Under the pieces are notes generated by a model. It was not told the origin of the DNA. It searched no databases and was given only the letters and a program-made list of their open reading frames with translations. Positions 1,251 through 17,660 of a DNA stretch of 64,000 nucleotides are shown in pieces. The stretch comes from Candidatus Latescibacterota bacterium (GTDB taxonomy: Bacteria > Latescibacterota > UBA2968 > GCA-2709665). The stretch lies in contig OZ241917.1 in the NCBI GenBank assembly GCA_965203805.1, positions 3,328,001 to 3,392,000 of the forward strand, in the 5' to 3' direction. The stretch's first letter is position 1; every line of letters starts with the position of its first letter. The position numbers and the translations under genes were made by a program.

Positions 1251-1320
1251 CTCGCCTCTCCTTCTCGGTGTGTGGTGTGTTTCGCTCCAGAATTCCATGC
1301 TCGCTCCAGTAACGAAAACT

Positions 1321-1360
1321 GAAGTATGGGAGGCTCCCGGAGGAACCTCCCATACGCTTC
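1321..1360 (-). terminator. Stem-loop downstream of the large surface-protein gene (terminator or stabiliser)
   Basis: GTATGGGAGG...CCTCCCATAC inverted repeat just after the stop at 1366; only a short T run follows on the minus strand. Confidence 0.5.
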
Positions 1361-1365
1361 CTGCA

Positions 1366-4300: not shown

Positions 4301-6354
4301 AGACCGCCCTCCGTCACGCTGGCGTTACCCGCCAGGTCGATCGCCAGGATCTCCAGATTGTACCTCTGGCGATCAATAAGGGTATCGTTCACCGGCCAGG
4401 AGATCAGACTGCTCACCATCTCCAGCCTGGCGTTGCCTGGGCCATAGGGCTGCACGATGGCCGTTCCGCCGCCCTGCTCATGATAACGTATGGACAGCGA
4501 GTCCAAGTCTTCGTTGATATTGAAGACCGGGTTCTTGGTGGCCGGGACGATGGTGGGCGCGTCCTCGTTGTCCGCGTCTTTGGGCGCGGTCTCGTTCGTC
4601 GGGAACAGATTGGTGATCCCCGGGGTATTGCCGTCCAGCGTGATGCCAGTAAGCTCCTTATACTCGGTCTTGTTGCCCAGGCTGTCCCAGACCGTGATGA
4701 TGATGTCCCCTGCCGTTCCGCCCTTGGCTACGTACTTGTTTTTCGCGATACCCGCCACGACGTCGTTCTCTTCAGTGAACCACATGGGCTGATCAGAGGG
4801 CTGATCATCGGCATCGTCATCCAATCCTGCTTCTATATTGAGGAAGTCCACCTTGGCCTCTTTATCGCTGCCGGTGGGGTCGAGTGAGAAGTCTGTTTCA
4901 GTGGTGGCATCGGTGGCAGGATCATCGCCCAAGTAGTCGTCCAGCGTGAGCGTACTGTCGGCGTGCTTGATCGTGATCTTGCTCGTCCCCTCGCTGAGTT
5001 TGAACACGAGCGGATTCAATTTGCGGTTGCTTGTACCCCCCGGCACCTCACCCGTCAACGGCGTATAATTGGAAAGCTCCTGCGTGACTGCCGCCGTGAT
5101 CACAGGATCGTGCGATCCCGCCGCGATACTGTCGGGATTGGGATAAACTACCGTCACCTTGGGATTGGTCGCGTCGCCGATAATCGGGATGTTTGTCGCT
5201 TCGGCTGGGTCCGCTGTCCCGTCGGCTGGGGTGCTCAGGTCAGAGGTGACGTCCGCTACGAGTTTGTCGGCAGTGCCGTGAAGTCCTTTCCAATTGGCAG
5301 CCGCGGGCGCCGCAGCCGTACCGCCCACGTTACCGGCAACGTCCACGAGATAGGCAAAGAGTTCGAGCCGCTCGTTATCCTTGAACTGCCCCGCTTTGAT
5401 TTTCTCATCGACGCTCGGATTCGGGCTGTACAATCTGTCCCCGCGCAGCTCGATTTTTAACCGCGCATCTTCCTTGAAAGCGAGGGCGTTCGCCTCTTCC
5501 AAGGTCAAACCGAGGCCAGGGGGGTCAGCGTCTGCGGCAATCTGATAACGCGCAATCGAGTCGGCGGGCACCAGACCGATTTCGATCCCTTCCGCCCTGG
5601 CATCAAGAATTGCGTCGGTATCCAGATTCAGCACCGCTTTGAATACATGGTCGGTGACAATATGGATCGCCTGGACGTAGGGGCCGGCTGTGATAGCGGC
5701 ATCCGACGTATCGGTCATTACCTCGTCCAACCTGCCCAGGTCCAGAGCGATACTCTCAAATACCGTGCCATGAATCGGGCGTTCGGCGTCGAGGCCGAAG
5801 AGCACCCCGTCACCCACGCGGCTGGCGCCGAAGCCGGCTGTGGCGGGCGTGATCTTCCGGTTCCTCATCAGGTTGTTCAGAGGATCCGGATTCGGTGAGC
5901 CGCCCGGATCCACCACGATCTTCAACGCGTGGTTGCTGCTGCTCTCCATATTTTCCGCAGGTGCGGTGTTGGCGACGACCGCGATCTTGACATTGAAGGT
6001 GTCAACGCCTGAAGTCTCGCCGTCACCCTTTGTTATCTGGGTGGCGCTACCGGTTCCATCGTCATCAATATTGTAATAAACCTTATCCGCAAGGGTGCTA
6101 GCGGCTCCGATGTCGCCGTCAGCAACGCTGGAATCGGCCACGGCAAACCGGAAACCTTCGTCGAGCCGGCCGTCGTAGCACAGGATCCGCACTCTGATTG
6201 TATCGCCGATCGCGGCCCATTTGTTGGCTTTAGGCTCGTCGACGCGAATCAAGATACCCCGCGTGGCGGCGACTTCCTGGGCCGAGGCCACGCCAACCAC
6301 TCCGAAAACCAGCAGAAACGCCAAACCAATACTTGAAACCGTCTTTAACTGCAT
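1366..6354 (-). CDS. Large acidic secreted/surface protein (1662 aa): Ig/FN3-like body, dockerin/EF-hand-like pair, cohesin-like domain, FlgD-Ig/T9SS-like tail
   Basis: Start moved to ATG 6354 (AAGGAGG SD; signal peptide MQLKTVSSIGLAFLLVFGVVGVASA). Motifs: DFEDFVAFAAAF...ADVDDDGSVDFSDF; VGETVTLTVSMANARQLNGYGLELAYDADKFEFVSV; PTEFALHQNFPNPFNPQTNIPYDL...IYNLLGQEVRTLV...SGIYFYQV. Confidence 0.88.
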   Translation of the reverse strand: MQLKTVSSIGLAFLLVFGVVGVASAQEVAATRGILIRVDEPKANKWAAIGDTIRVRILCYDGRLDEGFRFAVADSSVADGDIGAASTLADKVYYNIDDDGTGSATQITKGDGETSGVDTFNVKIAVVANTAPAENMESSSNHALKIVVDPGGSPNPDPLNNLMRNRKITPATAGFGASRVGDGVLFGLDAERPIHGTVFESIALDLGRLDEVMTDTSDAAITAGPYVQAIHIVTDHVFKAVLNLDTDAILDARAEGIEIGLVPADSIARYQIAADADPPGLGLTLEEANALAFKEDARLKIELRGDRLYSPNPSVDEKIKAGQFKDNERLELFAYLVDVAGNVGGTAAAPAAANWKGLHGTADKLVADVTSDLSTPADGTADPAEATNIPIIGDATNPKVTVVYPNPDSIAAGSHDPVITAAVTQELSNYTPLTGEVPGGTSNRKLNPLVFKLSEGTSKITIKHADSTLTLDDYLGDDPATDATTETDFSLDPTGSDKEAKVDFLNIEAGLDDDADDQPSDQPMWFTEENDVVAGIAKNKYVAKGGTAGDIIITVWDSLGNKTEYKELTGITLDGNTPGITNLFPTNETAPKDADNEDAPTIVPATKNPVFNINEDLDSLSIRYHEQGGGTAIVQPYGPGNARLEMVSSLISWPVNDTLIDRQRYNLEILAIDLAGNASVTEGGLLTFKKVFENPDADMFKIVPDAALKEKQVAGVDYKIAVSVLDTTLTRIEKERDSDASDVRAVTYHTPSALAAIVSGDQADALEGASFSGTGVSAAPAFTLPADLAAAGMVAKAAILDGDGWHAGTREVKFKSTKPLTGVVLYAAEGTIDPATGAYTLRISGQAAKPINVQIAEFSKFTLTGYEGEISTDNVAGSFTVKVVPTDAFGNPSLRIDNNTGSKDFASVAFTFASSNAAVQVPDGQQMVTSLEGSTYGAVAADVGGKATISVRTVVDTYVTGALQADTPVKDKTGALTGSVTVTIVSEDGDGPDPGAPAAVANVVVQDYKGADGEGDQGGVVVVSFPNSSQHEAVSAYQISREIDSTTGVDEEGNVVELEEPVKKWVPWTSVSFAADAGDNMGDAEGGMQTVIVPAIDNVRTNWGVTSISDGGESDPTTSVASKRVYTKESIQQTLQLLGMPEAELLTDEELSNQFNAPEDYVKSLIGDQKGVVFAPVNPDLSALIGSAALPSNIRTKHAGDILSSARTVTEEPVAAVDDIAPAAVTDASGTGAGGVVLTWTASASEGVVDYIPYRPNPNGDGKYNIPIMGVNGYKVMRGASADALEEVASIPAGSTRFSDDNLPDGVTSLVYRIDAFDDNNVAMSDLITVSDISVRVSFVDADGEPVYLMVLPSKGGSLEVDFEDFVAFAAAFNSKKGDANYNPQADVDDDGSVDFSDFVTAAATFGKTAVVPAGKLAVVPQRPGVNADTEMTLELTGDKVLVGETVTLTVSMANARQLNGYGLELAYDADKFEFVSVAPAENDLLKSEGGETPLFKNWTEEGRISVVNVITESGTVSGEGALVTFTFKVLREFDDSARFEIAQGVVFDADQLQNPVVTLGALDVQSTPTEFALHQNFPNPFNPQTNIPYDLAEGGDVVLRIYNLLGQEVRTLVRERQAPGRYTVQWSGMDDRGVSVSSGIYFYQVSVAGKFQDAKRLMLLK

Positions 6355-6781
6355 TACCAACCTCCTTGTGAAACAGGACGCTTCGTAAAACCTGCGGTAA
6401 ACCTCCCTTGCTGCGCCTTGAAGCCACTTCTTGAACCCCGGCAGAACCCCCGGCGGGGGGTGCCGGTAATCGGAAGTGATGTGAAATTTAGCTGAAATGG
6501 CGTTCCTCCCTTCGTTTGGAAAATTCATAAAGTTCCTGGCCTGCAAACACTTGGTGCGACTATCGACATTGGTTGAACCCTTGTAAGCGCTCGATTCTGT
6601 TACACCTCCTTTTAAATGCACAAAAGCCACCCCCTCGTCTCCGGTCTTCAAGAGATAGCATGATTGATTCATCATAGTGTGTTGAGGTTCCAACAACCCG
6701 GTTCCGATAGTCGATGAAAACAGCCATGAATTCGGCCGATTTCGCTGTTCAGCCGCACGTTATGCGGCAAACAGGTTCCTA

Positions 6782-6810
6782 AGTATACGCAACACTAAAC
6801 AGGCTGTCAA
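6782..6810 (-). promoter_or_regulatory. Near-consensus sigma-70 promoter for the surface-protein gene
   Basis: Minus strand reads TTGACA-17 nt-TATACT with an A-tract upstream. Confidence 0.75.
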
Positions 6811-6947
6811 GTGTTTTTTGTACTTTATTCTTCACGTGAAATCCGGTATGCCGAATGGCCCCAAACCCCTGTAAATTACGGCGCTTTCGCGCCCCGCGCA
6901 ACCCCAACATATAGGGCCCCGTCTATTGGTTGCCACAATACGCCGTG

Positions 6948-7517
6948 TCAGCGCATCTGATGTTCGAGCCGCTGGATTTCATCGCGCAGGCTGGCCGCCT
7001 CTTCGTACTGTTCCCGGGCCACGGCTTCCTTCAATTCGGCCCTGAGGGCGGTCAGCCGATCGGAGATCCCGCCTTCGACCTGCTCGAATTCCACGTCCAG
7101 CGAGGCGCTGATGGGCATCCCGGCCTCCTGGATGACTCTGTCTTCGACGTAGACCGGGGCGCCCGTGCGGAGGGCCAGGGCGAGGGCGTCGCTGGGCCGG
7201 GAGTCCACGCCGATGGATTTGCCGTCGGCATCCAGGCTGACTTCGGCGAAGAAGACGTCTTCCTCGATCGCGTTGATGAGCACCCGCTTGACCTTGACGC
7301 CCATTCCATCCAGAATGGAACGGAGCAGCTCGCAGGTGGGCGGCCGGGGGGGATCTTCGTCGTACAGCGCCATGTAGATGGCCGTGGCTTCGAAGTTCCC
7401 GATGGAGATGGGCAGGAAGATCCGCTGCTCCCTGTCTTTCAGCCACACGAGCGGCCGGTTGGTGTTGGGTTCCACCGCCACGCCGACCACGTTCATTTCT
7501 ACCATAGGGGTGTACAT
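6948..7517 (-). CDS. Bifunctional nuclease (DUF151) with C-terminal UvrB/UvrC motif
   Basis: LPISIGNFEATAI, PPRPPTCELL, VDSRPSDALALALRTGAPVYV, LKEAVAREQYEEAASLRDEI. Start is 7517 or 7505. Confidence 0.9.
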   Translation of the reverse strand: MYTPMVEMNVVGVAVEPNTNRPLVWLKDREQRIFLPISIGNFEATAIYMALYDEDPPRPPTCELLRSILDGMGVKVKRVLINAIEEDVFFAEVSLDADGKSIGVDSRPSDALALALRTGAPVYVEDRVIQEAGMPISASLDVEFEQVEGGISDRLTALRAELKEAVAREQYEEAASLRDEIQRLEHQMR

Positions 7518-7639
7518 CCTTCCCGGCGCGGGTAGGGGAGGATGATTTGCGCCGCTGGGGGAGGGCGTTTTTGGCGAATACACTTACTAAACAAGAATAT
7601 AGGGCGAAGGTCACGGAAAAATCAAGGGAAAAAAGGCGG

Positions 7640-9990
7640 GTAGCGAACCACCCCCAGCCCCGCAGACCTCTCCCCCCAACCCCCTCTCCCGGGGGGAGAG
7701 GGGGAGGAAAGACAGGCATCGCGTGCCGGTCATCTATAGATACTCTGATAGACGGGAATTCGCCAGCCGGCACACTTGCATGCCCAGGACATCGACCCAT
7801 CACCGTTCCCCCTTCCTCACAGGAAGGGGGATAGGGGGTAGGTCTGAGGAGGGGGGAAAAGCAGCAGTCAGCAAGCAGCGATCAGCGGTCAGCGGTCAGC
7901 GGTCAGCCTAAAGCAAGATCAAAAACAAGAGTCAAAGTCAGTTCACACGGAGACACAAAGGCACGAAGAAAAACAAAGCGGCCAGGACGAACCACCCCCC
8001 AGCCCCGCAGACCTCTCCCCCCGGCCTGCCTGCGCCGAGTTCTGCTCGGCAGGCAGGCCCCCTCTCCCGGGGGGAGAGGGGGAGACAACCAGGACTCCCT
8101 GATAGGATCACCGTTCCCCCCTTCCCCCCGGGAAGGGGGATAGGGGGTAGGTTGGTGGGGAGGAGAGGGGGGACCGGCGGTACCCGCTATCGCTTTTCGA
8201 TATGTGCTCTGATTGATTCAAGCACGCCGTCGAGATTCGTGTGGACTTGGTCATTTGTAATACGCAATACATCTAATCCTCGCGCGTTTAGGATCTCATC
8301 CCGTTTTGCGTCATACGCAGCCTGATCCTGGTGAATCTCGCCGTCGACTTCAATTACCAGGCCGACGGAATGACAATAGAAATCGACAACGAAGCCGTCG
8401 ATGATCTGCTGCCGACGAAAGTGAAGGCCATCGAGCCGATTCGCACGCAAGTGTTGCCATAGCTGTTTTTCTTCTTCTGTCATTTGTGAGCGCAGCGACT
8501 GTGCCAACTTGACCTTCTCATTGTCAACACGTTGACCCCTTACGATATATCGCCTGGATCTATTCATCAACCCCTCCGCCCAACGCAGACCTCTCCCCCC
8601 GGCCCACAACCAGCAGTCAGCCAGAAACAGAAGCAAAATCAAAAACAAGAGTCAAAGTCAGCTCACACAAAGGCACAAAGACACGAAGAAAAACAAACCA
8701 GCCAGGAGCGAACCACCCCCAGCCCCGCAGACCTCTCCCCCCGGCCTGCCTGCGCCGAGTTCTGCTCGGCAGGCAGGCCCCCTCTCCCGGGGGGAGAGGG
8801 GGAGACAACCAGGACTCCCTGATAGGATCACCGTTCCCCCCTTCCCCCCGGGAAGGGGGATAGGGGGTAGGTCTGAGGAGGGGGGAAAAGCAGCAGTCAG
8901 CAAGCAGCTTTCAGCAGTCAGCAATCAACCTAAAGCAAAATCAAAAACAAGATTCAAAGTCAGCTCACACAAAGACATTAAGAAAAACAAAGCAGCCAGG
9001 TGCGAACCACCCCCCAGCCCCGCAGACCTCTCCCCCCGGCCTGCCTGCGCCGAGTTCTGCTCGGCAGGCAGGCCCCCTCTCCCGGGGGGAGAGGGGGAGA
9101 CAACCAGGCATCGCGTGCCGGTCATCTATAGATACTCTGATAGACAGGAATTCGCCACCCGGCACACTTGCATGCCCGGTCCATCGACCCATCGCCGTTC
9201 CCCCTTCCTCACAGGAAGGGGGATAGGGGGTAGGTCTGAGGAGGGGGTGTGGGGGTGAAAACCAGGCATCACGTGCCGGTCATCTATAGATACTCTGATA
9301 GACAGGAATTCGCCAGCCGGCACACTTGCATGCCCACGACATCGACCCATCGCCGTTCCCCCTTCCTCACAGGAAGGGGGTTAGGGGGTAGGTCGGCGGG
9401 GGGAGACGCAAGACGTGAGACGGGAGATGATCACTCGCGTCAACGGGGCGACGATAAGGCCTGGCGACATGACCTCGCGGATGCGCAGACCTCTCCCCCC
9501 TGCCTGCCGAAAAACCACCGCCAGGCAGGGACCCTCTCCTGTGAGGAGAGGGTAACGAACGCCACGCGATAGGATCCGGGGGTCCCCCTTCCGTCGGGAA
9601 GGGGGTAGGCAGTAGGTTGGCGGTGGTGTGGGAGATTGCAAGCGTTGCATCGCGCAAGAAGTTCATCGCAGGTAACTTCGCGAGGTTCTATCGAACGCAC
9701 GGAGGATGGGGTGGGGCTTTTCCGCGCGAGTCCGTCCAGCAACGTCGTCCGGGAATGCCTGCGAGGGTTTCAGGGCAACGTCTCCCGGTGTGTCTCCACG
9801 GAAGCGGTTCGCGGAAAAGCAGCCCCGCGGCGTTTGAGCGGCCTGCCTGCGCCGAAGCCTGCTCGGCAGGCAGGCACGCTTCTTTTTGGTCCTTTTTCTT
9901 ACGTGGATAAGAAAAAGGACGAAGAAGAAAAAAGTAAATTAGAGATGTGAAGTTTGGGACCGCCCGGAACGCAGTTCCAACGGGTGTTTC
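7640..9990 (+). repeat. Modular REP-like cassette 1 (contains DUF559 gene 1)
   Basis: Core GTGCCGGTCATCTATAGATACTCTGA at 7723, 9115, 9273; hairpins CCCCTCTCCCGGGGGGAGAGGGG and CCCCTTCCTCACAGGAAGGGG; CAGCAGT heptamers; ~230-bp direct repeats at 7921 and 8641. Confidence 0.93.
8187..8567 (-). CDS. DUF559 / Vsr-like endonuclease, copy 1 (126 aa)
   Basis: LAQSLRSQMTEEEKQLWQHLR...FRRQQIIDGFVVDFYC...LVIEVDGEIH...YDAKRDEIL...GLDVLRITN. Visibly more AT-rich than host genes. Confidence 0.93.
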   Translation of the reverse strand: MNRSRRYIVRGQRVDNEKVKLAQSLRSQMTEEEKQLWQHLRANRLDGLHFRRQQIIDGFVVDFYCHSVGLVIEVDGEIHQDQAAYDAKRDEILNARGLDVLRITNDQVHTNLDGVLESIRAHIEKR

Positions 9991-10010
9991 CCGCCGGCGG
10001 GCGCACGACC

Positions 10011-13000
10011 CTAGCCGCCGGGCGGCGGGAACGCCGTTAGGCCGAAGGAGGCGGCGAAGGTGAGATAATCGGCGAAGTCTACGGCGCCGTCGTCGTTGAC
10101 GTCGGCCTGGGGGTTGTAGGCCGGGTCGCCCTTTTGGGTCCCGAAGGCGGCGGCGAAGGCGATGAGGTCTTCCAGGTTGACCTGGAGATCGCCGCCCTGC
10201 GACGGGAGGACGATGAGGTAGACCGGATCGCCGGCGGCGTCCGCGAACGTCACGCGGACGGAGATGTTCTCAACCGCGAACGGGGCGCCCGGCGTCACGT
10301 TGTTGTCGTCAACCGCGTCGATCCGGTAGACCAGGGAGGCGACGGCGGCGGGCAGGGCGTCGTCAGCGAAACGGGTGGCGCCCGGAGGCAGCGCGGCGAT
10401 TTCCTCGAGGCGGTCGGCGGATGCGCCTCGCATCACCCGGTAGCCCGTCACGCCATAGATGGGCAGGTTATGGCCGCGGTACGGGATGAACCCCACCACG
10501 CCGTCATCCGCGGACGCCGTCCAACGCAGCGTCACGCCGCCCGCGCCGTCGCCGGACGCGCCGGTCACCGCGGCGGGCGGGATGTTGTCGACCGCGCCGG
10601 CCGGTCCGTCGGTTTCCGTGCGCGCGGACACCCGGAGTTCGCCCGCCGCGCGGTCGGTGCGGACGTTCGCGGGAACGGGCGCGGCGGCCATTGGCGCGCT
10701 CAAGCGCGGATCCGCGGGCGCGAAGACCAGGTCCCGCCGATCGCCGATGACGGACGCGGCGAAATCCCCAGGCGCGTTGAAGCGGTCCGCCGGCTCTCCT
10801 CCCGTCAGGACCGGCGCGGGAATGCCCGGCAGCGCGAGGGCCTGAGCCGCGCTCGCCTTGGTGAAAACCCGCTTCCCGGCGGGGGCCGAATCCGCGCCCG
10901 AGACGGACCTGACGCCCCACCGGGTGGCCGCGTTGTCCAGCGCGGGGACCACGGCGCGGACCAGACCGCCGTTTGCGCCGCCCGTCCCGACGCGGCCGCC
11001 CCCAACGCCGACGGTCGCCCAGTGCATCCACGCCTTCACGGGCGCTTCGCGGTGAATTTCCCGGCCGTGCTCGTCATACCCCGCCAGCGTCGTCTCGACT
11101 TCGCGCTCGATCCGGTAGTGGATCACGGCATCGCGCCGGGCGGCATGCGGGAACCCGATCAGCACCATGCCGCCCTGGTCGCCGGACCCGTCCGCGCCTT
11201 CGTAGTCCTCGACCGTGATGGAGGCGGGCGGGTCCGGGGCGCGGTTCCCAGGCGCGAAACGCACGGTCACGCTTCCCGTAAGCGCGCCGGTCGCGGCGCT
11301 GTCGCCCGACCCCGTGACAAGCCCCTCGTGAACCGTGCGCACGGTGATCACCGCGCTGCCCGCCATCTCCGCGGCCACGGCGCCGAAGCCGGCCCCGCCG
11401 GGCGGGACCGTCTGCACGCCCGCGGGTACCGTCACCGCGGCGTGGCTGCTACCGAAGGTGACGCCCACCGACGCGTAGGTCTCCGATCCCACGGCATTGT
11501 CGATTTTCATGCTCACGTTGCCGAATGCGTCGGCGGGAAGCACGCGGACCGTAAAGGCGCCGGACACGCCGCCGTCCGGATCCGCGGCGTCCCCCGCGGA
11601 CACCACGAATTGCGAGAACTCTGCGGCCTCAACGTTCACCGCCGCGTCCAGCCGGCCGCTGATGCGAATCGAAACCGTCCCGTCCACGGGGTCGGTCAGG
11701 CCCTCCGCGGCCATCACCACGGCGTCGACCAGCGGCCTGGCGGACCTGAAGCTGACGTCGCGCCGGCCCGCGCGCCACCCGTCGCCGTCCAGAACGGCGG
11801 CGCGGGCGACCATCCCGGCGGCGGCCATCTCCGCGGGCAGCGCGAAGGACGGCGCGGGCGTCACACCGATGCCGCCGAAGCTCACGCCTTCCAGCGCGCG
11901 GGCCTGGTCGCCGGAAACGATCACGGCCAGCGCCGCGGGCGTACGATAGGTCAACGCGAAGACGCCGGCGCCCTCGGCGCGTGAGAGCGTGGTGTCCAGG
12001 ACCGACAGGCGCAGGGTGAAATCCACGCCCGCAACCACGCTGCCGCCCTGGTCCGGCGCGTTGACGATGCGGAACGCGTCGGCCTTCGGATTCAGGAAAC
12101 CCCCGGCGAACGTGAGCGCCCCGCCGCCGGTCACGCTGGCGTTGCCGGCGAGATCCACCGCCAGAATCTGCAGATCGTACCGGCTTCCTTCGTAAAAACC
12201 CGCGCTTTCCACGGGCCAGATCATCGGTTTGCCGACGGTCTCCAGCCGGCGGTTGCCCCGTCGGAAACGCTGCACGACGGCCGGGCCGCCGACGGCGAGG
12301 TCGATATAGCGGACGGACAGCGAATCCAGCGCCTCGTCGATGGCGAAGACCGGGTCCTTGCCGGCCAGGTTGATGGTGGGCTCGTCGAAGTTGTCCGGAT
12401 CCCGGGGCGCGGTGGCCGCGGTGGGGAACAGATCGGAGATCACCGGCGCTTTTTCGTCGTACCAGATGCCGGCGAGGTCCATGGCGGCCCGGTTCCCCAC
12501 GCTGTCCCAGACCTCGATCGTCAGGTCTTTCCGCACGCCGCCCGCGCGATCGTATTTCCAGGGAAGCGCAAGCGCGGCCGTGGAATCGTCGCCCGTGGGC
12601 GGCAGACCTTCGTCGACGTCAACCGTGCCGGCGTCATCGACTGCGCCGCTGCCGACGCCGTGCGCGCTGTCGCCGTGGGTGATCCTGATCGAGTCCGGGA
12701 CTTCGCTGAGACTGAACGTGAGCGGGTTCAACCTGCGGTTGGCCTGAACGTCCTCCGCCTCTCCGGGCAGGGGTCGAACTCCCGACAGCGTCTGCGTGAC
12801 GGCCGCCGAGATCCGGTTTTCCATGCGGTCCGGTCGCGGGTACACGATCGTGATCCGGGGCGGTGTCGCGTCGGCGATCCATTCCACGCCGCCGGGATCG
12901 AATGCGTCCGGAAGGCCGTACCCGGCACTGACGGGCGACGGCGCGGGGGCGCCCATCGAGGCGCCGCCCAGGTTGCCGGCGGCATCCACGAGAAACGCTT

Positions 13001-13901
13001 CGACCCTGACCCGCCGGTTATCGCCGAAATCGCCCGCTTCGACCTTCGCCGACGCCCGCACGTTCGCGTTGTACAACCGCTCTCCGACAATCGCGAAGGT
13101 GACCGGCGCCGAGGAAAACGCCGAGTCCGCGTCCACGACCCCCGCCCGGATGCGGTCCGCCCCCGCACGCAGCACGCCGGCCGTGTTCAGACCGATCCGG
13201 ATGGTGATTCTGTCGCCGCGTTTGAACCTGACGCGCTCGATCGCCCCCGCCGGCGTGGCGTCGAATCCGAGGCCTTCCGTTTCAACGGCGAAGGATTCGA
13301 ACGCGTCGGCGTGCACGGGACGGTTGGCGTCGATGCCGAACCGCACCCCGTCGCCCACCCGGTTGGCGCCGAAGCCCGTGGACGCCGGGGTGATCTTCGT
13401 CTTCGTCATCAGGTTGTTCAGCTCGTTGCCGGCCACGTCCGCGTCGAGGTCCACCACCACTTTCACCGCGCGGCTGTCCGTCGACGCAAAGGGGTCGGCG
13501 CGCGGGGAGACGGTTATGGAGACCCGGAACGTGTCGACGCCCGATGCCTCGCCGTCGCCAAACGCGACACCGTCCGGTAGATGACCCGGACCGGGTACAT
13601 ATATATTGTAATAGACAAATCCACGCGTGGCGGCGGTCCCGCCGGCCGTAGCGCCCACGTCCCTGTCGCGCACGGTTGCATCGACGACCGACACGCGGAA
13701 CCCTCGATCCAGGAGGCCGCCGTACGTCAGGATGCGGATGTCGATCCCGCCGTCGATCTTCACCCAGGCATTGGCGGCCGGCCGGTCCACGCGAATCATG
13801 ATCCCCGGCGTCTCCGCGACGTCCTGCGCCCGCGACGCCCCCGCGACACCCGGAACCAGCAAGAACGCCAGAACCGGGACTGAAGATATCCGCAACCGCA
13901 T
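10011..13901 (-). CDS. Secreted paralog (1296 aa) of the 1662-aa surface protein, ending at the dockerin/EF-hand-like pair
   Basis: Collinear shared motifs (SGVDTF, LNNLM..KITPA..GFGA.RVGDGV.FG, ILAVDLAGNASVT, DYEGADGSGDQGG, YNPQADVNDDGAVDFADY); signal peptide; GGGAGG SD. Confidence 0.88.
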   Translation of the reverse strand: MRLRISSVPVLAFLLVPGVAGASRAQDVAETPGIMIRVDRPAANAWVKIDGGIDIRILTYGGLLDRGFRVSVVDATVRDRDVGATAGGTAATRGFVYYNIYVPGPGHLPDGVAFGDGEASGVDTFRVSITVSPRADPFASTDSRAVKVVVDLDADVAGNELNNLMTKTKITPASTGFGANRVGDGVRFGIDANRPVHADAFESFAVETEGLGFDATPAGAIERVRFKRGDRITIRIGLNTAGVLRAGADRIRAGVVDADSAFSSAPVTFAIVGERLYNANVRASAKVEAGDFGDNRRVRVEAFLVDAAGNLGGASMGAPAPSPVSAGYGLPDAFDPGGVEWIADATPPRITIVYPRPDRMENRISAAVTQTLSGVRPLPGEAEDVQANRRLNPLTFSLSEVPDSIRITHGDSAHGVGSGAVDDAGTVDVDEGLPPTGDDSTAALALPWKYDRAGGVRKDLTIEVWDSVGNRAAMDLAGIWYDEKAPVISDLFPTAATAPRDPDNFDEPTINLAGKDPVFAIDEALDSLSVRYIDLAVGGPAVVQRFRRGNRRLETVGKPMIWPVESAGFYEGSRYDLQILAVDLAGNASVTGGGALTFAGGFLNPKADAFRIVNAPDQGGSVVAGVDFTLRLSVLDTTLSRAEGAGVFALTYRTPAALAVIVSGDQARALEGVSFGGIGVTPAPSFALPAEMAAAGMVARAAVLDGDGWRAGRRDVSFRSARPLVDAVVMAAEGLTDPVDGTVSIRISGRLDAAVNVEAAEFSQFVVSAGDAADPDGGVSGAFTVRVLPADAFGNVSMKIDNAVGSETYASVGVTFGSSHAAVTVPAGVQTVPPGGAGFGAVAAEMAGSAVITVRTVHEGLVTGSGDSAATGALTGSVTVRFAPGNRAPDPPASITVEDYEGADGSGDQGGMVLIGFPHAARRDAVIHYRIEREVETTLAGYDEHGREIHREAPVKAWMHWATVGVGGGRVGTGGANGGLVRAVVPALDNAATRWGVRSVSGADSAPAGKRVFTKASAAQALALPGIPAPVLTGGEPADRFNAPGDFAASVIGDRRDLVFAPADPRLSAPMAAAPVPANVRTDRAAGELRVSARTETDGPAGAVDNIPPAAVTGASGDGAGGVTLRWTASADDGVVGFIPYRGHNLPIYGVTGYRVMRGASADRLEEIAALPPGATRFADDALPAAVASLVYRIDAVDDNNVTPGAPFAVENISVRVTFADAAGDPVYLIVLPSQGGDLQVNLEDLIAFAAAFGTQKGDPAYNPQADVNDDGAVDFADYLTFAASFGLTAFPPPGG

Positions 13902-14477
13902 AGCCGGCCTCCCTTTGGGTCACCACGCGCCGATTCATCCCGGCGGGCAGGGCGGCAAAATCCATGCCATCGGGAGGCCGAAGGCGTCACGCGGCATCGA
14001 CGGCGGGCTCGCCATTGCGAATTCGGAGGACCGGTCGACGGACCGGGTTGGCGCGAGGGATGCGGAAACGGTTGAAGAAACGGCGCGGGAAGGCGTTCAG
14101 GCGCGGATTACGGAAAGAAGCGCCGCGGGAGGCACGGACGGCGGTTCAGGCGATCGAGGGATCCGAGGCGAGAGGCGCCGGTCGGGGAACCGAGCGGAGG
14201 GATTGAAGATATCTTTCACGTGGGTGAAAGAAGCTTTCAGCGGTCAGAGAACAGCTTTCAGCGGTCAGCAGTCAGCAGTCAGCAGTCAGCAATCAGCAAT
14301 CAGCCTAAAGCAAGATCAAAAACAAGAATCAAAGTCAACTCACACAAAGACACGAAGGCACGAAGAAAACCAAACCAGCCAGGAACGAACCACCCCCAGC
14401 CCCGCAGACCTCTCCCCCCTGCCTGCCGAAAAACCACCGCCAGGCAGGGACCCTCTCCTGTGAGGAGAGGGGAGAAA

Positions 14478-15580
14478 AGACAGGCGTCGCGTGCCGGTCA
14501 TCTATAGATACTCTGATAGACAGGAATTCGCCAGCCGGCACGTTTGCATGCCCGGTCCATCGACCCATCGCCGTTCCCCCTTCCTCACAGGAAGGGGGGC
14601 CAGGGGGTAGGTCGGCGGGGAGGAGAGAGGGAGTAAAGACAGGCGTCGCGTGCCGGTCATCTATAGATACTCTGATAGACAGGAATTCGCCAGCCGGCAC
14701 ACTTGCATGCCCGGTCCATCGACCCATCGCCGTTCCCCCTTCCTCACAGGAAGGGGGCTAGGGGGTAGGTCGGCGGGGAGGAGAGGGGGAGAAAAGACAG
14801 GCGTCGCGTGCCGGTCATCTATAGATACTCTGATAGACAGGAATTCGCCAGCCGGCACACTTGCATGCCCGGTCCATCGACCCATCACCGTTCCCCCTTC
14901 CTCACAGGAAGGGGGATAGGGGGTAGGTCGGCGGAGGCGGTGAGGGGGAGTAAAGACAGGCGTCGCGGGCCGGTCATCTATAGATACTCTGATAGACAGG
15001 AATTCGCCACCCGGCACGTCTGCATGCCCAGGACATCGACCCATCGCCGTTCCCCCTTCCTCACAGGAAGGGGGATAGGGGGTAGGTCGGCGGAGGCGGT
15101 GAGGGGGAGTAAAGACAGGCTTCGCGGGCCGGTCATCTATAGATACTCTGATAGACAGGAATTCGCCACCCGGCACGTTTGCATGCCCGGTCCATCGACC
15201 CGTCACCGTTCCCCCTTCCTCGCAGGAAGGGGGCCAGGGGGTAGGTCGGCGGAGGCGGTGAGGGGGAGTAAAGACAGGCGTCGCGGGCCGGTCATCTATA
15301 GATACTCTGATAGACAGGAATTCGCCACCCGGCACGTCTGCATGCCCAGGACATCGACCCATCGCCGTTCCCCCTTCCTCACAGGAAGGGGGATAGGGGG
15401 TAGGTCGGCGGGGGGGAGAGGGGGAGTAAAGACAGGCTTCGCGGGCCGGTCATCTATAGATACTCTGATAGACAGGAATTCGCCACCCGGCACGTTTGCA
15501 TGCCCGGTCCATCGACCCGTCACCGTTCCCCCTTCCTCGCAGGAAGGGGGCCAGGGGGTAGGTCGGCGGGGAGGAGAGGG
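14478..15580 (+). repeat. Tandem array of 7 units of 158-159 bp
   Basis: Core starts at 14491, 14650, 14808, 14967, 15126, 15285, 15443; an eighth copy at 16091 lies beyond the DUF559 gene. Confidence 0.95.
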
Positions 15581-15587
15581 GAGAAAT

Positions 15588-15980
15588 CTATACGTTGCAT
15601 TGAAGCCATTCCATATAAGCTCTGATTGTTTCGAGTACGCCATCGAGATTCGTGCAGATCTCGGCATTTGAGATGCGTATGACCTGTAATCCACGCGCTT
15701 TGAGAATGGCATCCCGTTCTGCGTCATAAGCTACCTGATTCTGGTGAACTTCGCCATCGACTTCAATCACTAATCCGACCGAATGACAGTAGAAGTCCAC
15801 GATAAAGCCATCGATAATCTGTTGCCGTCTAAAGCGAAAGCCATCAAGCCGTTTCGCACGCAGGCGCTGCCAAAGCCGTTTTTCTTCGTCTGTCATCTGT
15901 GATCTCAATTTGCGCGCCAACTTCACTTTCTCGCGCGCGACAGGCTGACCGATCACAATTTTTCGCAAGGGCTTTTTCAT
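15588..15980 (-). CDS. DUF559 / Vsr-like endonuclease, copy 2 (130 aa)
   Basis: LARKLRSQMTDEEKRLWQRLR...FRRQQIIDGFIVDFYC...IEVDGEVH...YDAERDAIL. About 90/126 residues identical to copy 1 by hand alignment. Confidence 0.93.
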   Translation of the reverse strand: MKKPLRKIVIGQPVAREKVKLARKLRSQMTDEEKRLWQRLRAKRLDGFRFRRQQIIDGFIVDFYCHSVGLVIEVDGEVHQNQVAYDAERDAILKARGLQVIRISNAEICTNLDGVLETIRAYMEWLQCNV

Positions 15981-16308
15981 CAGAAACCTCTCCCTCCTGC
16001 CGCGCAGACCTCTCCCCCCGGCCTGCCGAAAAACCACCGCCAGGCAGGGACCCTCTCCTGTGAGGAGAGGGGAGAAAAGACTGGCGTCGCGTGCCGGTCA
16101 TCTATAGATACTCTGATAGACAGGAATTCGCCAGCCGGCACGTTTGCATGCCCAGGACATCGACCCATCGCCGTTCCCCCTTCCTCACAGGAAGGGGGCC
16201 AGGGGGTAGGTCGGCGGGGTGGTGTGGCGGTTTGGTCACTGCAAAAATCGCGCCGCTCACCAGCAGCGTCGGACGCAAGGACGATGCGTGGGGGCCTCTA
16301 CCCGCAAC

Positions 16309-16347
16309 AAAAAAACGATGGGCATGCCTGTGGCAAAACCCATCGTT
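16309..16347 (-). terminator. Intrinsic terminator after rplI
   Basis: AACGATGGG...CCCATCGTT stem followed by a T run on the minus strand. Confidence 0.6.
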
Positions 16348-16411
16348 CTCTCTTGCATGTTTTTCCCGTTCTTCCTTCTTCCTTCTTCCTTTTTCCTTGA
16401 CCGCTTCTTGT

Positions 16412-16855
16412 TTATTCCTTAACCACCCACACCTTGACGGTTGCGCGGACTTCGGCGTGGAGGCGGATGGTGACGTCGTAGACCCCGAGCGCGCGGATGG
16501 GTTCGTCGAGTTCGACCCAGCGGCGGTCGATTTCGAAACCCTGTTCGACGAGGTGTTCGGAAATGTGCTGCCCCGTGACGGAGCCGAAGATCTGGTCTTC
16601 CTTGCCCACGGCGACCGGAATCGTGCAGGATGCCTTCTCGACCTTTTTCGAGAGGGCCACGGCCTCGCGCTGGGCGCGGGTGTTCCGGGCTTCCTTCTGG
16701 CGCTTGAGTTCCTCGTAGACCCTCATGTTCCCCTTGCTGGCCACCAGGGCCAGATTCCGGGGGATGAGGTAATTCCTGGCGTACCCGTCCTTGACGTCAA
16801 CAACGGTTCCAGCCTGGCCCAGGTTGTCGAGACCTTCGGTTAGGATGACCTTCAT
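16412..16855 (-). CDS. rplI: 50S ribosomal protein L9
   Basis: MKVILTEGLDNLGQAGTVVDVKDGYARNYLIP...IFGSVT...PIRALGVYDVTIRLH. Confidence 0.97.
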   Translation of the reverse strand: MKVILTEGLDNLGQAGTVVDVKDGYARNYLIPRNLALVASKGNMRVYEELKRQKEARNTRAQREAVALSKKVEKASCTIPVAVGKEDQIFGSVTGQHISEHLVEQGFEIDRRWVELDEPIRALGVYDVTIRLHAEVRATVKVWVVKE

Positions 16856-16914
16856 GGGGTTCCCTTTCGTTGGGCGCGATGGCCAAATGGCGTTATACAT
16901 TAATATATAGAGAA

Positions 16915-17660
16915 CAGCTTTCAGCGGTCAGCTCTCAGCAGTCAGCTAAGATCAAAGACGAAAACCAGCTCACACAAAGACACGAAGACACAAAGAAAAG
17001 CAAACCAGCCAGGAACGAACCACCCCCAGCCCCGCAGACCTCTCCCCCCGGCCACCTCTCCTGTGAGGAGAGGGGGAGGAAAAGCAGGCATCGCGTGCCG
17101 GTCATCTATAGACATTCTGATAGACAGGAATTCGCCAGCCGGCACGTCTGCATGCCCGGTCCATCGACCCGTCACCGTTCCCCCTTCCTCACAGGAAGGG
17201 GGCTAGGGGGTAGGTCTGAAAAGCGGTGAGACGGGAGACGTGAGACGTGAGATGACAACCTGCGTCAACGGGACGACGATATGGCCGGGCGAGACCTCCT
17301 CCCTGATGCGCAGACCTCTCCCCCCTGCCTGCCGAAAAACCACCGCCAGGCAGGGACCCTCTCCTATAAGGAAAGGGTAACGAACGCCTCGCGATAGGAT
17401 CCCGCTATCCCCCTTCCTCACAGGAAGGGGGATAGGGGGTAGGTCTGAAAGGCGGGGAGACGGGAGACGTGAGATACCGTGAGTGCCCTACGGTTTTTCT
17501 TGTCGTTACCATATCGGTAAAGAAACAGGCACGGTTAGCGTGAAAACACTGTGGTAATGTCATCCTCTCCCGTCTACCCTCTACCCTCTACCGTCTCACC
17601 GCCTTCAGGTTTTCATTCTTAATTCTTCATTCTTAATTCTTAATTTTCCTTCTCCCGTCT
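16915..17660 (+). repeat. Modular REP-like cassette 3 between rpsR and rplI
   Basis: Heptamer and 9-mer modules, REP pair, core at 17095, TTCATTCTTAA tail. Confidence 0.92.

What the first reader, a model, noticed from the sequence alone, without database searches (positions are those of the whole stretch)
7640..16220. Candidate DUF559-endonuclease/REP selfish system: two nuclease genes occupy the same slot between inverted hairpin repeats that have spread through the intergenic DNA
Seen: both DUF559 genes (8187-8567, 15588-15980) lie in the same orientation between ...CCCCTTCC-n-GGAAGGGG-n-GGGGGTAGGT(C/T)GG.GGGGAGGAGAGGGG and CGCAGACCTCTCCCCCC. The two hairpin types are inverted versions of one motif (GACCTACCCCCTATCCCCCTTCCTGTGAGGAAGGGG versus GACCTCTCCCCCCGGCCACCTCTCCTGTGAGGAGAGGG). 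The same pair recurs many times without a gene. The proteins are only ~70% identical with intact DF..IEVDG..H motifs and AT-richer DNA, while the flanks are near-identical. Established: RAYT (HUH) transposases are flanked by, and are thought to spread, REP/REPIN doublets; DUF559 is a Vsr-like nuclease of unknown role. Inference: this is a REPIN-like system in which a Vsr-like nuclease, not a transposase, nicks or cuts at the hairpins and spreads gene-bearing and gene-less cassettes by repair or recombination.
Basis: partly seen in the sequence, partly recalled or inferred. Interest (0 to 1): 0.9.

Follow-up and report, generated by a model that had tools for sequence, protein, structure and literature searches.

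The report
Vsr-like nuclease genes inside REP-like repeats
Two small nuclease genes of an uncharacterised family (DUF559) lie between copies of a hairpin repeat that fills this genome's intergenic DNA, and the same gene-plus-hairpin pairing recurs in many bacterial phyla, which suggests a widespread, undescribed selfish DNA element.

Summary
Both ORFs (8187-8567 and 15588-15980, minus strand) are intact DUF559 genes. Each lies between a hairpin+box repeat and a GCAGACCTCTCCCCCC box. That box has 24 copies in the window, against 0.01 expected by chance.

- All 5 full-length DUF559 genes of the genome have such flanks, as do 21 of 22 loci in relatives and 57 of 80 loci from many phyla. Hairpin density is 24 times background.
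- In a sister genus, a 546-bp box-hairpin-gene-hairpin-box unit is an insertion. Of 20 orthologous loci, 14 are empty and one holds a gene-deleted, MITE-like derivative.
- In that genus the four gene-bearing genomes hold 15-187 hairpins and the twelve others hold 0-10.
- RAYT/IS200 genes do not track the repeat. The genome's own RAYT has a different palindrome.
- dN/dS is 0.08-0.24.

Two further findings are new. The hairpin arms are homopyrimidine/homopurine. The box is a mirror image of the adjacent arm, so the end could form a triplex.

The closest characterised relative is the homing endonuclease I-Bth0305I. Cleavage of the repeat by DUF559 remains an inference. I found no paper linking DUF559 to such repeats.

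The parts
8187..8567 (-). DUF559 (Vsr-like / EDxHD-type) nuclease gene 1, 126 aa
   Evidence: PF04480 at E 1.5e-37. The catalytic-type residues E33, D62, D75, H79 and D86 are invariant in alignment A1. PDB 3hrl matches at E 4.8e-34. An orthologue with 88% aa identity sits at the same site in G001.
15588..15980 (-). DUF559 nuclease gene 2, 130 aa
   Evidence: PF04480 at E 1.5e-37. It is 71-73% identical to gene 1, with dN/dS 0.175.
7665..7844 (+). Box-to-box doublet (MITE-like, 180 bp): GACCTCTCCCCCC box, CCCTCTCC hairpin, internal module, CCCCTTCC hairpin, GGGGGTAGGTC box
   Evidence: Doublet list, motif map and sequence.
8007..8155 (+). Doublet that ends about 30 nt from the stop codon of gene 1. 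Its right box is a variant, GGGGGTAGGTT.
8585..8600 (+). GCAGACCTCTCCCCCC box 17 nt from the start codon of gene 1. On the gene strand it reads GGGGGGAGAGGTCTGC upstream of the ATG.
8730..8873 (+). Doublet, 144 bp
   Evidence: genome 3336730-3336873.
9025..9394 (+). Doublet (9025-9236) extended by a second 158-bp unit (tandem repeat 9085-9394, 2.0 copies)
9485..9620 (+). Degenerate doublet (box, CAGG hairpin, CCCTCTCC hairpin, CCCTTCC hairpin, variant right box)
14404..15581 (+). Complete doublet (14407-14613) followed by a head-to-tail array of 7.1 units of 159 bp. The array ends 6 nt from the stop codon of gene 2.
   Evidence: Tandem Repeats Finder: 14462-15581, period 159, 93% matches. Sequence; map.
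16004..16212 (+). Doublet (206 bp) that starts 24 nt from the start codon of gene 2

Best explanation
The two genes encode the nuclease of a selfish cassette family that has not been described.

The repeat end. The cassette's DNA ends are a composite motif with three parts:
- a hairpin whose 5' arm is all pyrimidine and whose 3' arm is all purine (here CCCCCTTCC..GGAAGGGGG or CCCCCTCTCC..GGAGAGGGGG);
- a 2-3 nt linker;
- a 'box' that is the mirror image of the adjacent arm (GACCTACCCCC on one end, GGGGGGAGAGGTC on the other).

The units.
- The autonomous unit is box-hairpin-DUF559-hairpin-box, about 550 bp.
- Internal deletion or replacement of the gene gives 95-340-bp gene-less doublets, which behave like MITEs or REPINs.
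- These doublets multiply, form tandem arrays, and join with other modules into mosaic intergenic DNA.
- In the window the two genes sit between such doublets. The purine box lies 17-26 nt upstream of each ATG. In one relative (L012) it ends 1 nt before the ATG.

Inferred mechanism.
- DUF559 is a Vsr-like nuclease carrying the EDxHD-type catalytic residues. I infer that it recognises the box+hairpin, perhaps folded as a hairpin with a third strand, and nicks or cuts next to the box.
- Host repair, copying from another repeat copy, would then spread gene-bearing and gene-less units. This is homing-like gene conversion, with rare illegitimate insertion at new sites.

Shown here: the specific association across phyla; co-mobility of the gene and its ends; birth of a gene-less derivative; purifying selection; independence from RAYT.

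Inferred: that DUF559 is the enzyme acting on the repeat; the site of cleavage; the repair route; the triplex.
For: Association in this genome.
- All 5 full-length DUF559 genes are flanked by hairpin+box repeats.
- The genome holds only 77 CCCTCTCC-type and 68 CCCCTTCC-type hairpins in 5.87 Mb.

Association elsewhere.
- 21 of 22 loci in relatives have a flanking hairpin.
- 57 of 80 loci from Planctomycetota, Chloroflexota, Cyanobacteriota, Bacteroidota, Proteobacteria, Spirochaetes, Nitrospirota and other phyla have a perfect pyrimidine-arm hairpin (stem at least 7) within 250 bp of the gene ends; 26 have one on both sides.
- Pyrimidine-arm hairpin density is 2.49 per kb in the flanks and 0.103 per kb in 329 kb of background. 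Other hairpins score 0.82 against 0.58 per kb.
- Named examples are Deinococcus proteolyticus pDEIPR03, Azospirillum lipoferum 4B and the N. gonorrhoeae locus matching the query at 45% aa identity. Whether that locus encodes the 3hrl protein was not checked.

Mirror box.
- 49 of 97 flanking hairpins have a mirror box on one side, against 4 of 97 for a box of the wrong type.
- For the 45 hairpins with asymmetric arms, the mirror fits better in 23, a direct repeat in 5, and 17 tie.
- The mean match of a hairpin to its own box is 6.53 of 8. Boxes swapped between loci give 5.85, sd 0.08.

Mobility.
- The L006 cassette (546 bp) was compared across 20 orthologous loci in genus g6: 2 filled, 14 empty, 1 deletion derivative, 2 with unrelated inserts, 1 not assessable.
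- The derivative keeps both ends and the last ~27 nt of the ORF.
- The MITE at G000 3867229 is absent at the orthologous sites of G001, G012 and G008.
- The MITE+gene unit of G013 is absent at the orthologous sites of G000, G012 and G008.
- A Muribaculaceae locus and a Gastranaerophilales locus share 72% nucleotide identity over the gene, from 78 nt upstream (where the upstream hairpin and box lie in both) to about 50 nt downstream.

Copy number tracks the gene.

The nuclease.
- dN/dS is 0.08-0.24.
- The profile matches 3hrl at E 4.8e-34 and the catalytic domain of the homing endonuclease I-Bth0305I (3r3p) at E 3.3e-4.
- The EDxHD residues are described in PMC3239194 (passages read).

A Caulobacter DUF559 protein causes an SOS response in vivo (PMC12907096, passages read).
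Against: - No cleavage or binding data exist for these proteins.
- 23 of 80 loci lack a perfect hairpin with a stem of at least 7. Eleven of those have only a 5-6-bp one, and 5 have under 130 bp of upstream sequence.
- Repeats persist without the gene. In genus g1, 10 genomes without a class I gene hold 2-23 hairpins. Three of them (G006, G009, G010) have no DUF559 match at all and hold 12-18.
- The gene's position relative to the repeats is not fixed. I saw boxes outside, boxes inside, and repeats on one side only.
- The one filled-versus-empty comparison shows no target duplication. It shows replacement of 17 nt and a 7-nt match (AGAGGTC) between the target and the element end, so classical transposition is not evident.
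- In this genome most copies crowd into 3.24-3.47 Mb, in two blocks of uniform orientation. That pattern fits local duplication or recombination as well as it fits nuclease-driven spread.
- Genomes related to one another are not independent samples.
Confidence: 0.6

Rival explanations
1. The repeats are the target, not the product. The DUF559 gene would be a free-standing homing-type gene that inserts into pre-existing REP-like repeats, as some insertion sequences do. The repeats themselves would be spread by something else, or by host recombination.
For: - In the window, and in several other loci, the gene lies between two complete doublets with the boxes facing the gene.
- Array junctions without a gene (GGGGGTAGGTCGGCGGGGAGGAGAGGGGGAG) resemble the junction that holds gene 2.
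- Repeats persist in genomes without the gene.
- The closest characterised relative is a homing endonuclease.
Against: - The 546-bp unit arrived with both repeat ends at a site that has no repeat in 14 relatives.
- In genus g6, genomes without the gene have almost no repeats, with a median of 0.
- Gene-less doublets share the gene cassette's own untranslated ends, and one is visibly a deletion derivative.
- Hairpin and box sequences change together with the gene lineage across phyla.
Confidence: 0.2
2. The gene is a passenger. DUF559 would be a host-useful nuclease, for example a very-short-patch-type mismatch nuclease tied to a cytosine methyltransferase or a part of restriction-modification loci. 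It would merely ride in, or sit next to, repeats mobilised by an unidentified factor.
For: - Caulobacter VsrA, which has a DUF559 domain, is SOS-induced and functionally linked to the methyltransferase ScmA. Its authors interpret it as a VSP repair nuclease (PMC12907096, passages read).
- Class II and class III copies in relatives lie in frame inside hsdM and hsdS.
- Purifying selection fits a host function equally well.
Against: - The distribution is patchy: 0-7 matches per genome (full and partial) among 41 relatives.
- Gene GC is 48% against 62% for the window.
- Copies from different families are about as similar to each other as the two copies within this genome are.
- There is presence/absence polymorphism at precise sites.
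- No other ORF lies inside the 546-bp unit.
- Y1 transposases do not track the repeats.
- A passenger gene would not be expected to keep the same kind of flank across phyla.
Confidence: 0.12
3. The hairpins are ordinary expression signals of the gene (terminator, attenuator, ribosome-binding site) or simple recombination-generated intergenic repeats, with no element biology.
For: - The purine box GGGGGGAGAGGTC contains a Shine-Dalgarno-like GGAGAGG. It ends 1 nt before the ATG in L012 and lies 17-26 nt upstream of the ATG of the two window genes.
- Hairpins after stop codons could act as terminators.
Against: - There are many gene-less copies and arrays: 50 doublets in this genome and up to 187 hairpins in a relative.
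- No T-run follows the hairpins.
- The conserved mirror box is not a feature of terminators.
- Hairpins occur on both sides of the gene, and in frame inside other genes.
Confidence: 0.05

Closest known systems
REP/REPIN repeats with their RAYT (TnpA-REP, HUH tyrosine transposase)
   Same: - Short palindromic repeats are present in tens to hundreds of intergenic copies.
- Doublets lie in inverted orientation.
- One or a few copies of a small nuclease gene are flanked by the repeats.
- Repeats persist and dwindle where the gene is missing.
- Concept taken from PMC3116915, PMC3337134 and PMC8049555; only titles and abstracts in the listing were seen.
   Different: - The enzyme is a PD-(D/E)XK / Vsr-like fold, not HUH.
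- Y1_Tnp genes do not track the repeat, and this genome's RAYT-like gene has its own, different palindrome.
- The stems are homopyrimidine/homopurine and carry a mirror box.
- The gene is patchy and looks horizontally moved, not single-copy and vertical.
EDxHD homing endonucleases (I-Bth0305I, PDB 3r3p)
   Same: - Both have a Vsr-like catalytic core with the same set of acidic and histidine residues (PMC3239194 passages).
- Both are selfish nuclease genes with filled and empty alleles.
   Different: - There is no intron or intein here.
- The protein is 126-130 aa. Whether it has NUMOD/HTH motifs in its N-terminal part was not tested.
- It carries its own repeat ends and leaves gene-less derivatives.
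- The target is unknown.
Vsr very-short-patch repair endonuclease and Caulobacter VsrA
   Same: They share the fold superfamily. VsrA carries a DUF559 domain and damages DNA in vivo when its cognate methylation is missing.
   Different: - Pfam Vsr (PF03852) is not among the families matched at E up to 0.001; only DUF559 and MTES_1575 are.
- I did not look for a methyltransferase gene next to the window genes. Their immediate neighbours are repeats, a bifunctional-nuclease/UVR gene, a 1296-aa ORF with no Pfam match and rplI.
IS200/IS605-type elements and MITEs
   Same: They have subterminal hairpins rather than long terminal repeats, and no target duplication was seen. Short non-autonomous derivatives exist.
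   Different: - No HUH transposase or TnpB is present.
- No replichore-linked orientation was seen where it could be checked (G034).
- The element ends are imperfect inverted boxes.
BIMEs (bacterial interspersed mosaic elements of E. coli; recalled, not read here)
   Same: The repeats are combined with other short modules (heptad CAGCAGT runs, an A-rich module, a CAGG hairpin) into mosaic intergenic blocks and arrays.
   Different: The repeat family and the associated gene are different.

Membership tests
Pfam DUF559 (PF04480) | Match to the family profile above the curated cut-off | tested here: met
   Both proteins score 128.2 bits against a cut-off of 20.6 and cover 105 and 104 of the 109 profile positions.
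Vsr-like / EDxHD catalytic core | Conserved E, D, (D/N/H), H and D residues of the active site | tested here: met
   E33, D62, D75, H79 and D86 are invariant in 12 diverse sequences. They align with the EvnG...D segment of 3r3p and with 3hrl. Residue roles are taken from PMC3239194. Activity was not tested.
Vsr proper (PF03852) | Match to the Vsr profile | tested here: not met
   The family is not listed among Pfam matches at E up to 0.001.
REP/REPIN-RAYT system | Short palindromic repeat in many intergenic copies | tested here: met
   The genome holds 65 box copies, 68 CCCCTTCC hairpins and 77 CCCTCTCC hairpins. The window holds 24 box copies against 0.01 expected.
REP/REPIN-RAYT system | Two repeats in inverted orientation forming a doublet | tested here: met
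   50 box-to-box doublets of 73-417 bp, mostly 95-340 bp.
REP/REPIN-RAYT system | Repeats flank, and co-occur with, a RAYT (Y1 HUH transposase) gene | tested here: not met
   The RAYT-like ORF at G000 4533506-4534114 is flanked by a GAGGGCAGGGATGCCCTCG-type palindrome. G034 has 187 hairpins and no Y1_Tnp match. Six g1 genomes with 13-23 hairpins also have none.
REP/REPIN-RAYT system | GTAG or CGTC tag at one end of the repeat (known to me only from the title and abstract of PMC3733652 in the listing) | tested here: inconclusive
   One box (GGGGGTAGGTC) happens to contain GTAG. The other box (GGGGGGAGAGGTC) and the boxes of other phyla (GGGGTGAGG) do not.
Homing endonuclease gene | Sits in a site whose uninterrupted allele it cleaves; filled and empty alleles coexist | tested here: inconclusive
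   Filled and empty alleles were found. Cleavage of the empty allele cannot be tested with these tools.
Homing endonuclease gene | Embedded in an intron or intein | tested here: not met
   Rfam shows no intron in window 7000-17000. In-frame copies in hsdM and hsdS have no intein domain among their Pfam matches.
MITE | Terminal inverted repeats, no ORF, derived from an autonomous element | tested here: met
   The ends are imperfect inverted boxes. The 111-bp class equals the two ends of the gene cassette. G030 carries a deletion derivative at the cassette's own site.
MITE | Target-site duplication | tested here: not met
   None was seen at the one clean filled/empty pair or at 10 solitary copies.

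The most novel reading that the evidence does not exclude
DUF559 proteins would be the dedicated nucleases of a pan-bacterial class of mobile repeats, unrelated to RAYT/REPIN.

- The ends of these repeats would not be plain hairpins. Each would be a hairpin plus a mirror-image third strand that folds into an intramolecular purine-motif triplex. The G/T-containing box would pair with the purine arm, and the recurrent single A-to-T change would be allowed in that motif. The nuclease would read this fold.
- Because all-purine and all-pyrimidine arms hold no stop codon in any frame, the elements could also sit in frame inside genes such as hsdM and hsdS without breaking them.
Probability: 0.3. Interest if true: 0.95.

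Novelty: new variant of a known kind. Interest (0 to 1): 0.85.

Why it matters
- DUF559 is a widespread bacterial protein family with no assigned role. A specific link to a repeat family gives it a testable function.
- It would show that REP-like repeats arose at least twice, with unrelated enzymes.
- It would explain the origin of many orphan GC-rich palindromes and of spurious ORF extensions of the 'PSPxGEG' type.
- It would explain odd in-frame insertions in restriction-modification genes.
- It offers a small (about 126 aa) nuclease with a long composite DNA signal, possibly a structure-specific one, that can be assayed in vitro in tractable organisms (Deinococcus, Picosynechococcus PCC 7002, Azospirillum).

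Tried and rejected
RAYT as the mobiliser: rejected.

Known RNA family in the repeats: none. The Rfam E-value search of window 7000-17000 gave 9 matches, all far below their gathering scores.

Replication-linked orientation.
- In G000 all copies from 3,242,187 to 3,327,573 are in minus orientation and all from 3,335,662 to 3,456,567 are in plus orientation, whatever the ORF strand.
- Cumulative GC skew has its maximum at 0.81 Mb and its minimum at 4.43 Mb, with no switch at 3.33 Mb. I do not read this as an origin or terminus effect.
- In G034 a first listing seemed to show about 2 Mb of plus-only copies. A narrower pattern showed that the listing had been truncated by strand and that orientation is mixed throughout. 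G022 had only 9 matches to that narrower pattern and was uninformative.

Target site of gene-less copies. The orthologous intergenic regions of G001, G012 and G008 differ wholesale, so no exact target could be read. The search with L143 was not analysed further.

Literature.
- 'DUF559' gave 25 papers, none on repeats.
- 'Vsr-like' together with 'repetitive extragenic palindromic' gave 0.
- PF04480, COG2852, YcjD and IPR007569 gave 26, none relevant by title or abstract.
- REPIN, RAYT, nuclease and 'new family' gave 32, of which 15 were listed, all on RAYT systems or unrelated.
- The library lacks most subscription journals, so prior description elsewhere cannot be excluded.

Not done: structure prediction, complex prediction, sequencing-run look-ups, the search for homologous proteins and the search of protein representatives. 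The Pfam and PDB sequence matches were strong enough for the claims made.

Relatives carry only handles. The nearest named DUF559 relatives are metagenome bins of Gemmataceae, Chloroflexota and Armatimonadota.

Full report
WHAT IS THERE

The window is G000:C1:3328001-3392000 of a 5.87-Mb, single-contig genome with 59% GC.

Each matches Pfam DUF559 at E 1.5e-37.

They lie in two unusually long intergenic regions, about 2.4 and 2.5 kb. The neighbours are:
- a bifunctional-nuclease/UVR gene;
- a 1296-aa ORF with no Pfam match;
- rplI.

Both regions are filled with repeats.
- The 16-mer box GCAGACCTCTCCCCCC occurs 24 times in the window, always on the + strand, against 0.01 expected.
- The composite CCCCTTCC-loop-GGAAGGGGG-NNN-GGGGGTAGGT occurs 21 times, again always on the + strand, against 0 expected.
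- A 159-bp unit forms head-to-tail arrays: 7.1 copies at 14462-15581, 2 copies at 9085-9394 and 2 copies at 62174-62480.

No Rfam family matches the repeats.

ANATOMY OF THE REPEAT

Read on the + strand, a complete element runs in this order:
- box GACCTCTCCCCCC;
- an optional CCTGCC..GGCAGG hairpin;
- a CCCTCTCC..GGAGAGGG hairpin;
- an internal module;
- a CCCCCTTCC..GGAAGGGGG hairpin;
- box GGGGGTAGGTC.

The two boxes are imperfect inverted repeats. The genome holds 50 such box-to-box doublets in size classes of about 95, 111, 125, 133, 180 and 207-213 bp.

In the window both genes are antisense to the doublets and lie between two of them. On the gene strand the order is hairpin, purine box, gene, pyrimidine box, hairpin.

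THE ASSOCIATION IS NOT LOCAL

The genome has five full-length DUF559 genes.
- The other three, near 5.38-5.40 Mb, belong to a diverged class.
- They are flanked by the same kind of motif with their own box: GCCCTCACCC, a linker, then CCCTCTCCC-NNN-GGGAGAGGG upstream, and the inverse downstream.

Among 41 related genomes, 27 have a DUF559 match. Of 22 loci read, 21 have a perfect hairpin with a stem of at least 7 within 260 bp.

I then took 80 loci from a scan of one genome per species. They cover Planctomycetota, Chloroflexota, Bipolaricaulota, Cyanobacteriota, Armatimonadota, Bacteroidota, Alpha-, Beta- and Gammaproteobacteria, Spirochaetes, Nitrospirota and other phyla.
- 57 of the 80 have a perfect hairpin with an all-pyrimidine 5' arm within 250 bp of the gene ends, and 26 have one on both sides.
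- Such hairpins occur at 2.49 per kb in the flanks and 0.103 per kb in 329 kb of the same loci further than 400 bp away.
- Hairpins of other composition are barely enriched, at 0.82 against 0.58 per kb.
- Of the 23 misses, 11 have a 5-6-bp pyrimidine-arm hairpin and 5 have under 130 bp of upstream sequence.

Named cultured examples show the same layout:
- Deinococcus proteolyticus pDEIPR03, with box-hairpin-gene-hairpin-box between two convergent genes;
- Azospirillum lipoferum 4B;
- a Neisseria gonorrhoeae locus that matches the query at 45% aa identity;
- Picosynechococcus PCC 7002 pAQ6, with shorter G-run hairpins.

A MIRROR BOX

Across phyla the hairpin carries, 2-3 nt from one side only, a box that is the mirror image (reverse, not complement) of the adjacent arm. 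Typical pairs are GGAGAGGGG-CC-GGGGTGAGG and GGAAGGGGG-ATA-GGGGGTAGG.

- 49 of 97 flanking hairpins have such a box at k-1 of k positions or better. A box of the wrong chemical type reaches that level in 4 of 97.
- Where the arm is asymmetric, so that mirror and direct repeats can be told apart (45 hairpins), the mirror fits better in 23, the direct repeat in 5, and 17 tie.
- Boxes match their own arm better than arms of other loci: mean 6.53 of 8, against 5.85 with sd 0.08 over 200 permutations. Related loci are not independent, so this overstates the significance.
- The one recurrent departure from a perfect mirror is a T in the purine box (an A in the pyrimidine box) beside the G run.

From established nucleic-acid chemistry, a purine or G/T third strand can bind antiparallel to the purine strand of a duplex through G.GC, A.AT and T.AT triplets. 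A hairpin followed by its mirror box is therefore able to fold into an intramolecular triplex. This is an inference and was not tested here.

A second consequence follows from the genetic code. All-purine and all-pyrimidine arms contain no stop codon in any frame.

THE GENE AND ITS ENDS MOVE TOGETHER

In sister genus g6 the cassette of G027 (L006 positions 1343-1888, 546 bp) reads box-hairpin-5'UTR-gene-3'UTR-hairpin-box. I compared 20 orthologous loci:
- 2 are filled (G027 and G023);
- 14 are empty, with 20-46 nt between the anchors;
- 2 hold unrelated small inserts;
- 1 could not be assessed;
- 1 (G030) holds a 137-nt derivative that keeps both ends and the last ~27 nt of the ORF.

The G030 derivative shows a gene-less doublet arising from the cassette at the cassette's own site.

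The 111-bp doublets of G000 have the same two untranslated ends as this cassette.

The filled site shows no target duplication. Seventeen nucleotides are replaced, and the target already holds AGAGGTC, the last 7 nt of the element.

Other polymorphisms point the same way.
- A doublet at G000 3867229 is missing at the orthologous site in three relatives.
- A doublet+gene unit in G013 is missing at the orthologous site of G000, G012 and G008.
- A Muribaculaceae locus and a Gastranaerophilales locus share 72% nucleotide identity over the gene, from 78 nt upstream (where the upstream hairpin and box lie in both) to about 50 nt downstream. This indicates transfer of the unit between phyla.

COPY NUMBER AND THE GENE

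Counts of CCCCTTCC-N3-5-GGAAGGGG per genome were set against gene presence.
- Genus g6, with a class I gene: 15, 23, 90 and 187.
- Genus g6, without it (12 genomes): 0, 0, 6, 0, 0, 10, 0, 0, 0, 3, 0 and 1. The genome with 10 is G030, the one holding the deletion derivative.
- Genus g1, with an intact class I gene: 69, 36, 34 and 24. One genome with a partial copy holds 4.
- Genus g1, without it (10 genomes): 2-23.

The repeats therefore outlast the gene but are most numerous where it is present. These genomes are related to one another, so no formal test is offered.

RAYT EXCLUDED

- The genome's RAYT-like ORF (4533506-4534114) is flanked on both sides by a different palindrome.
- Across the 41 genomes, Y1_Tnp matches do not follow the hairpin counts.
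- G034 (187 hairpins) has none, and neither do G012, G009, G004, G007, G003 or G010 (13-23 hairpins).
- Hairpin-free G025 and G033, and G040 with a single hairpin, have IS200-like genes scoring 125-129 bits. Hairpin-free G024 has only a stop-interrupted partial match of 65 bits.

THE PROTEIN

- dN/dS among seven class I genes is 0.08-0.24.
- The two window copies are 71% identical, with dS about 1.
- Copies from another family of the order are 75-77% identical to them.
- Gene GC is 48% against 62% for the window.

A profile of 12 diverse members matches two PDB entries:
- 3hrl, an uncharacterised N. gonorrhoeae 'endonuclease-like protein', at E 4.8e-34;
- 3r3p, the catalytic domain of the group I intron homing endonuclease I-Bth0305I, at E 3.3e-4.

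The residues that Taylor et al. call EDxHD and equate with the Vsr active site (PMC3239194, passages read) correspond to invariant E33, D62, D75, H79 and D86.

The only in-vivo data I found concern Caulobacter VsrA. It has a DUF559 domain, is SOS-induced, and triggers an SOS response when the ScmA methyltransferase is absent. Its authors read it as VSP repair (PMC12907096, passages read).

HOW IT MOST LIKELY WORKS

The evidence above shows a cassette whose only gene is a Vsr-like nuclease and whose ends are a conserved composite DNA signal.

My inference is that the nuclease recognises that signal and nicks or cuts beside the box. Host repair, copying from another repeat copy, would then spread both gene-bearing and gene-less units. 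This route uses the repeats themselves as homology, and it would account for:
- the variable position of the gene relative to the repeats;
- the tandem arrays;
- the local clustering.

Rare illegitimate joining, such as the 7-nt match at the g6 site, would found new loci.

The purine box contains a Shine-Dalgarno-like GGAGAGG. It ends 1 nt before the ATG in L012 (G013) and lies 17-26 nt upstream of the ATG in the two window genes, so it may also supply the ribosome-binding site.

I put 0.6 on this reading, 0.2 on 'the repeats are the target of a homing gene', 0.12 on 'passenger host nuclease' and 0.05 on 'mere expression signals'.

WHAT DOES NOT FIT OR IS UNEXPLAINED

- Repeats persist in three g1 genomes with no DUF559 match at all.
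- Most G000 copies lie in 3.24-3.47 Mb, in two blocks of opposite, uniform orientation that meet at 3.3276-3.3357 Mb. This is unrelated to ORF strand or to GC skew.
- No such block pattern is seen in G034. An apparent one was an artefact of a truncated listing.
- How the 159-bp arrays form is unknown.

NOVELTY

Four literature searches found no paper linking DUF559 or Vsr-like proteins with REP-like repeats.

The closest known system in logic is RAYT/REPIN. The enzyme, the repeat chemistry and the mirror box are all different. I therefore file this as a new variant of a known kind, with a bolder reading kept in the section on the most novel reading.

Noticed in passing
window 1-7662 and genome-wide (G000:C1:3242187-3456567): All repeat copies left of genome 3,327,573 are in minus orientation and all copies from 3,335,662 to 3,456,567 are in plus orientation. 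This holds whatever the ORF strand, and there is no GC-skew switch at that point. About two thirds of the genome's copies lie in this 230-kb stretch.
   Followed up: partly
L015:82-2253 (G008); L001:271-2556 (G001); L002:583-2643 (G016): DUF559 cassettes lie in frame inside hsdM (a 724-aa open frame: HsdM_N, N6_Mtase split in two, DUF559) and inside hsdS (762 and 687 aa: Methylase_S, DUF559). The L015 hsdM also reads through a gene-less repeat, translated as PSPGASRHPLPKGEG. Purine/pyrimidine arms are stop-free in all frames.
   Followed up: partly
G000:C1:4533506-4534114 and G000:C1:4546926-4550681: A RAYT-like ORF (HUH motif HVHVL) is flanked on both sides by its own GAGGGCAGGGATGCCCTCG-type palindromes. 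A second RAYT-like domain lies in frame inside a 1252-aa putative DNA methylase ORF.
   Followed up: partly
G000:C1:5380400-5400000: Three class II DUF559 genes and about ten class II repeats cluster beside fragments that read like the C-terminus of HsdM and a HicB-like antitoxin. This suggests a restriction-modification locus broken up by insertions.
   Followed up: no
window 7862-7907, 14232-14313, 17612-17653, 22112-22154, 26141-26177, 37857-38147: Runs of 7-nt units (CAGCAGT/CAGCGGT and, elsewhere, ATTCTTA/TTCATTC) and an A-rich module (AAGATCAAAAACAAGA...) recur next to the doublets. Together they form mosaic intergenic blocks.
   Followed up: no
window 32104-32767: A 220-bp unit is repeated 3.1 times at 95% identity. 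It contains the GCAGACCTCTCCCCCC box plus the CAGG hairpin and an AGACGTGAGATGGGGGATGA module. That module also flanks solitary doublets elsewhere in the genome.
   Followed up: no
L035 (G040) and L036 (G044), same intergenic site as the L006 cassette: Two other genomes carry unrelated 313-nt and 412-nt inserts at the very site where the DUF559 cassette sits in G027 and G023; at least the 313-nt insert holds a small ORF. The site looks like a hot spot for small insertions.
   Followed up: no
window 1366-6696 and 10011-13901: There is a 1776-aa ORF with cohesin, FlgD-Ig and Por_Secre_tail (type IX sorting) domains, and a 1296-aa ORF with no Pfam match that has diverged paralogues nearby in relatives.
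   Followed up: no
tool behaviour: The pattern listing of the genome search is cut off unevenly by strand when there are more than 100 matches. It can therefore mimic a long single-orientation block. The counts are whole; the listed places are not.
   Followed up: yes
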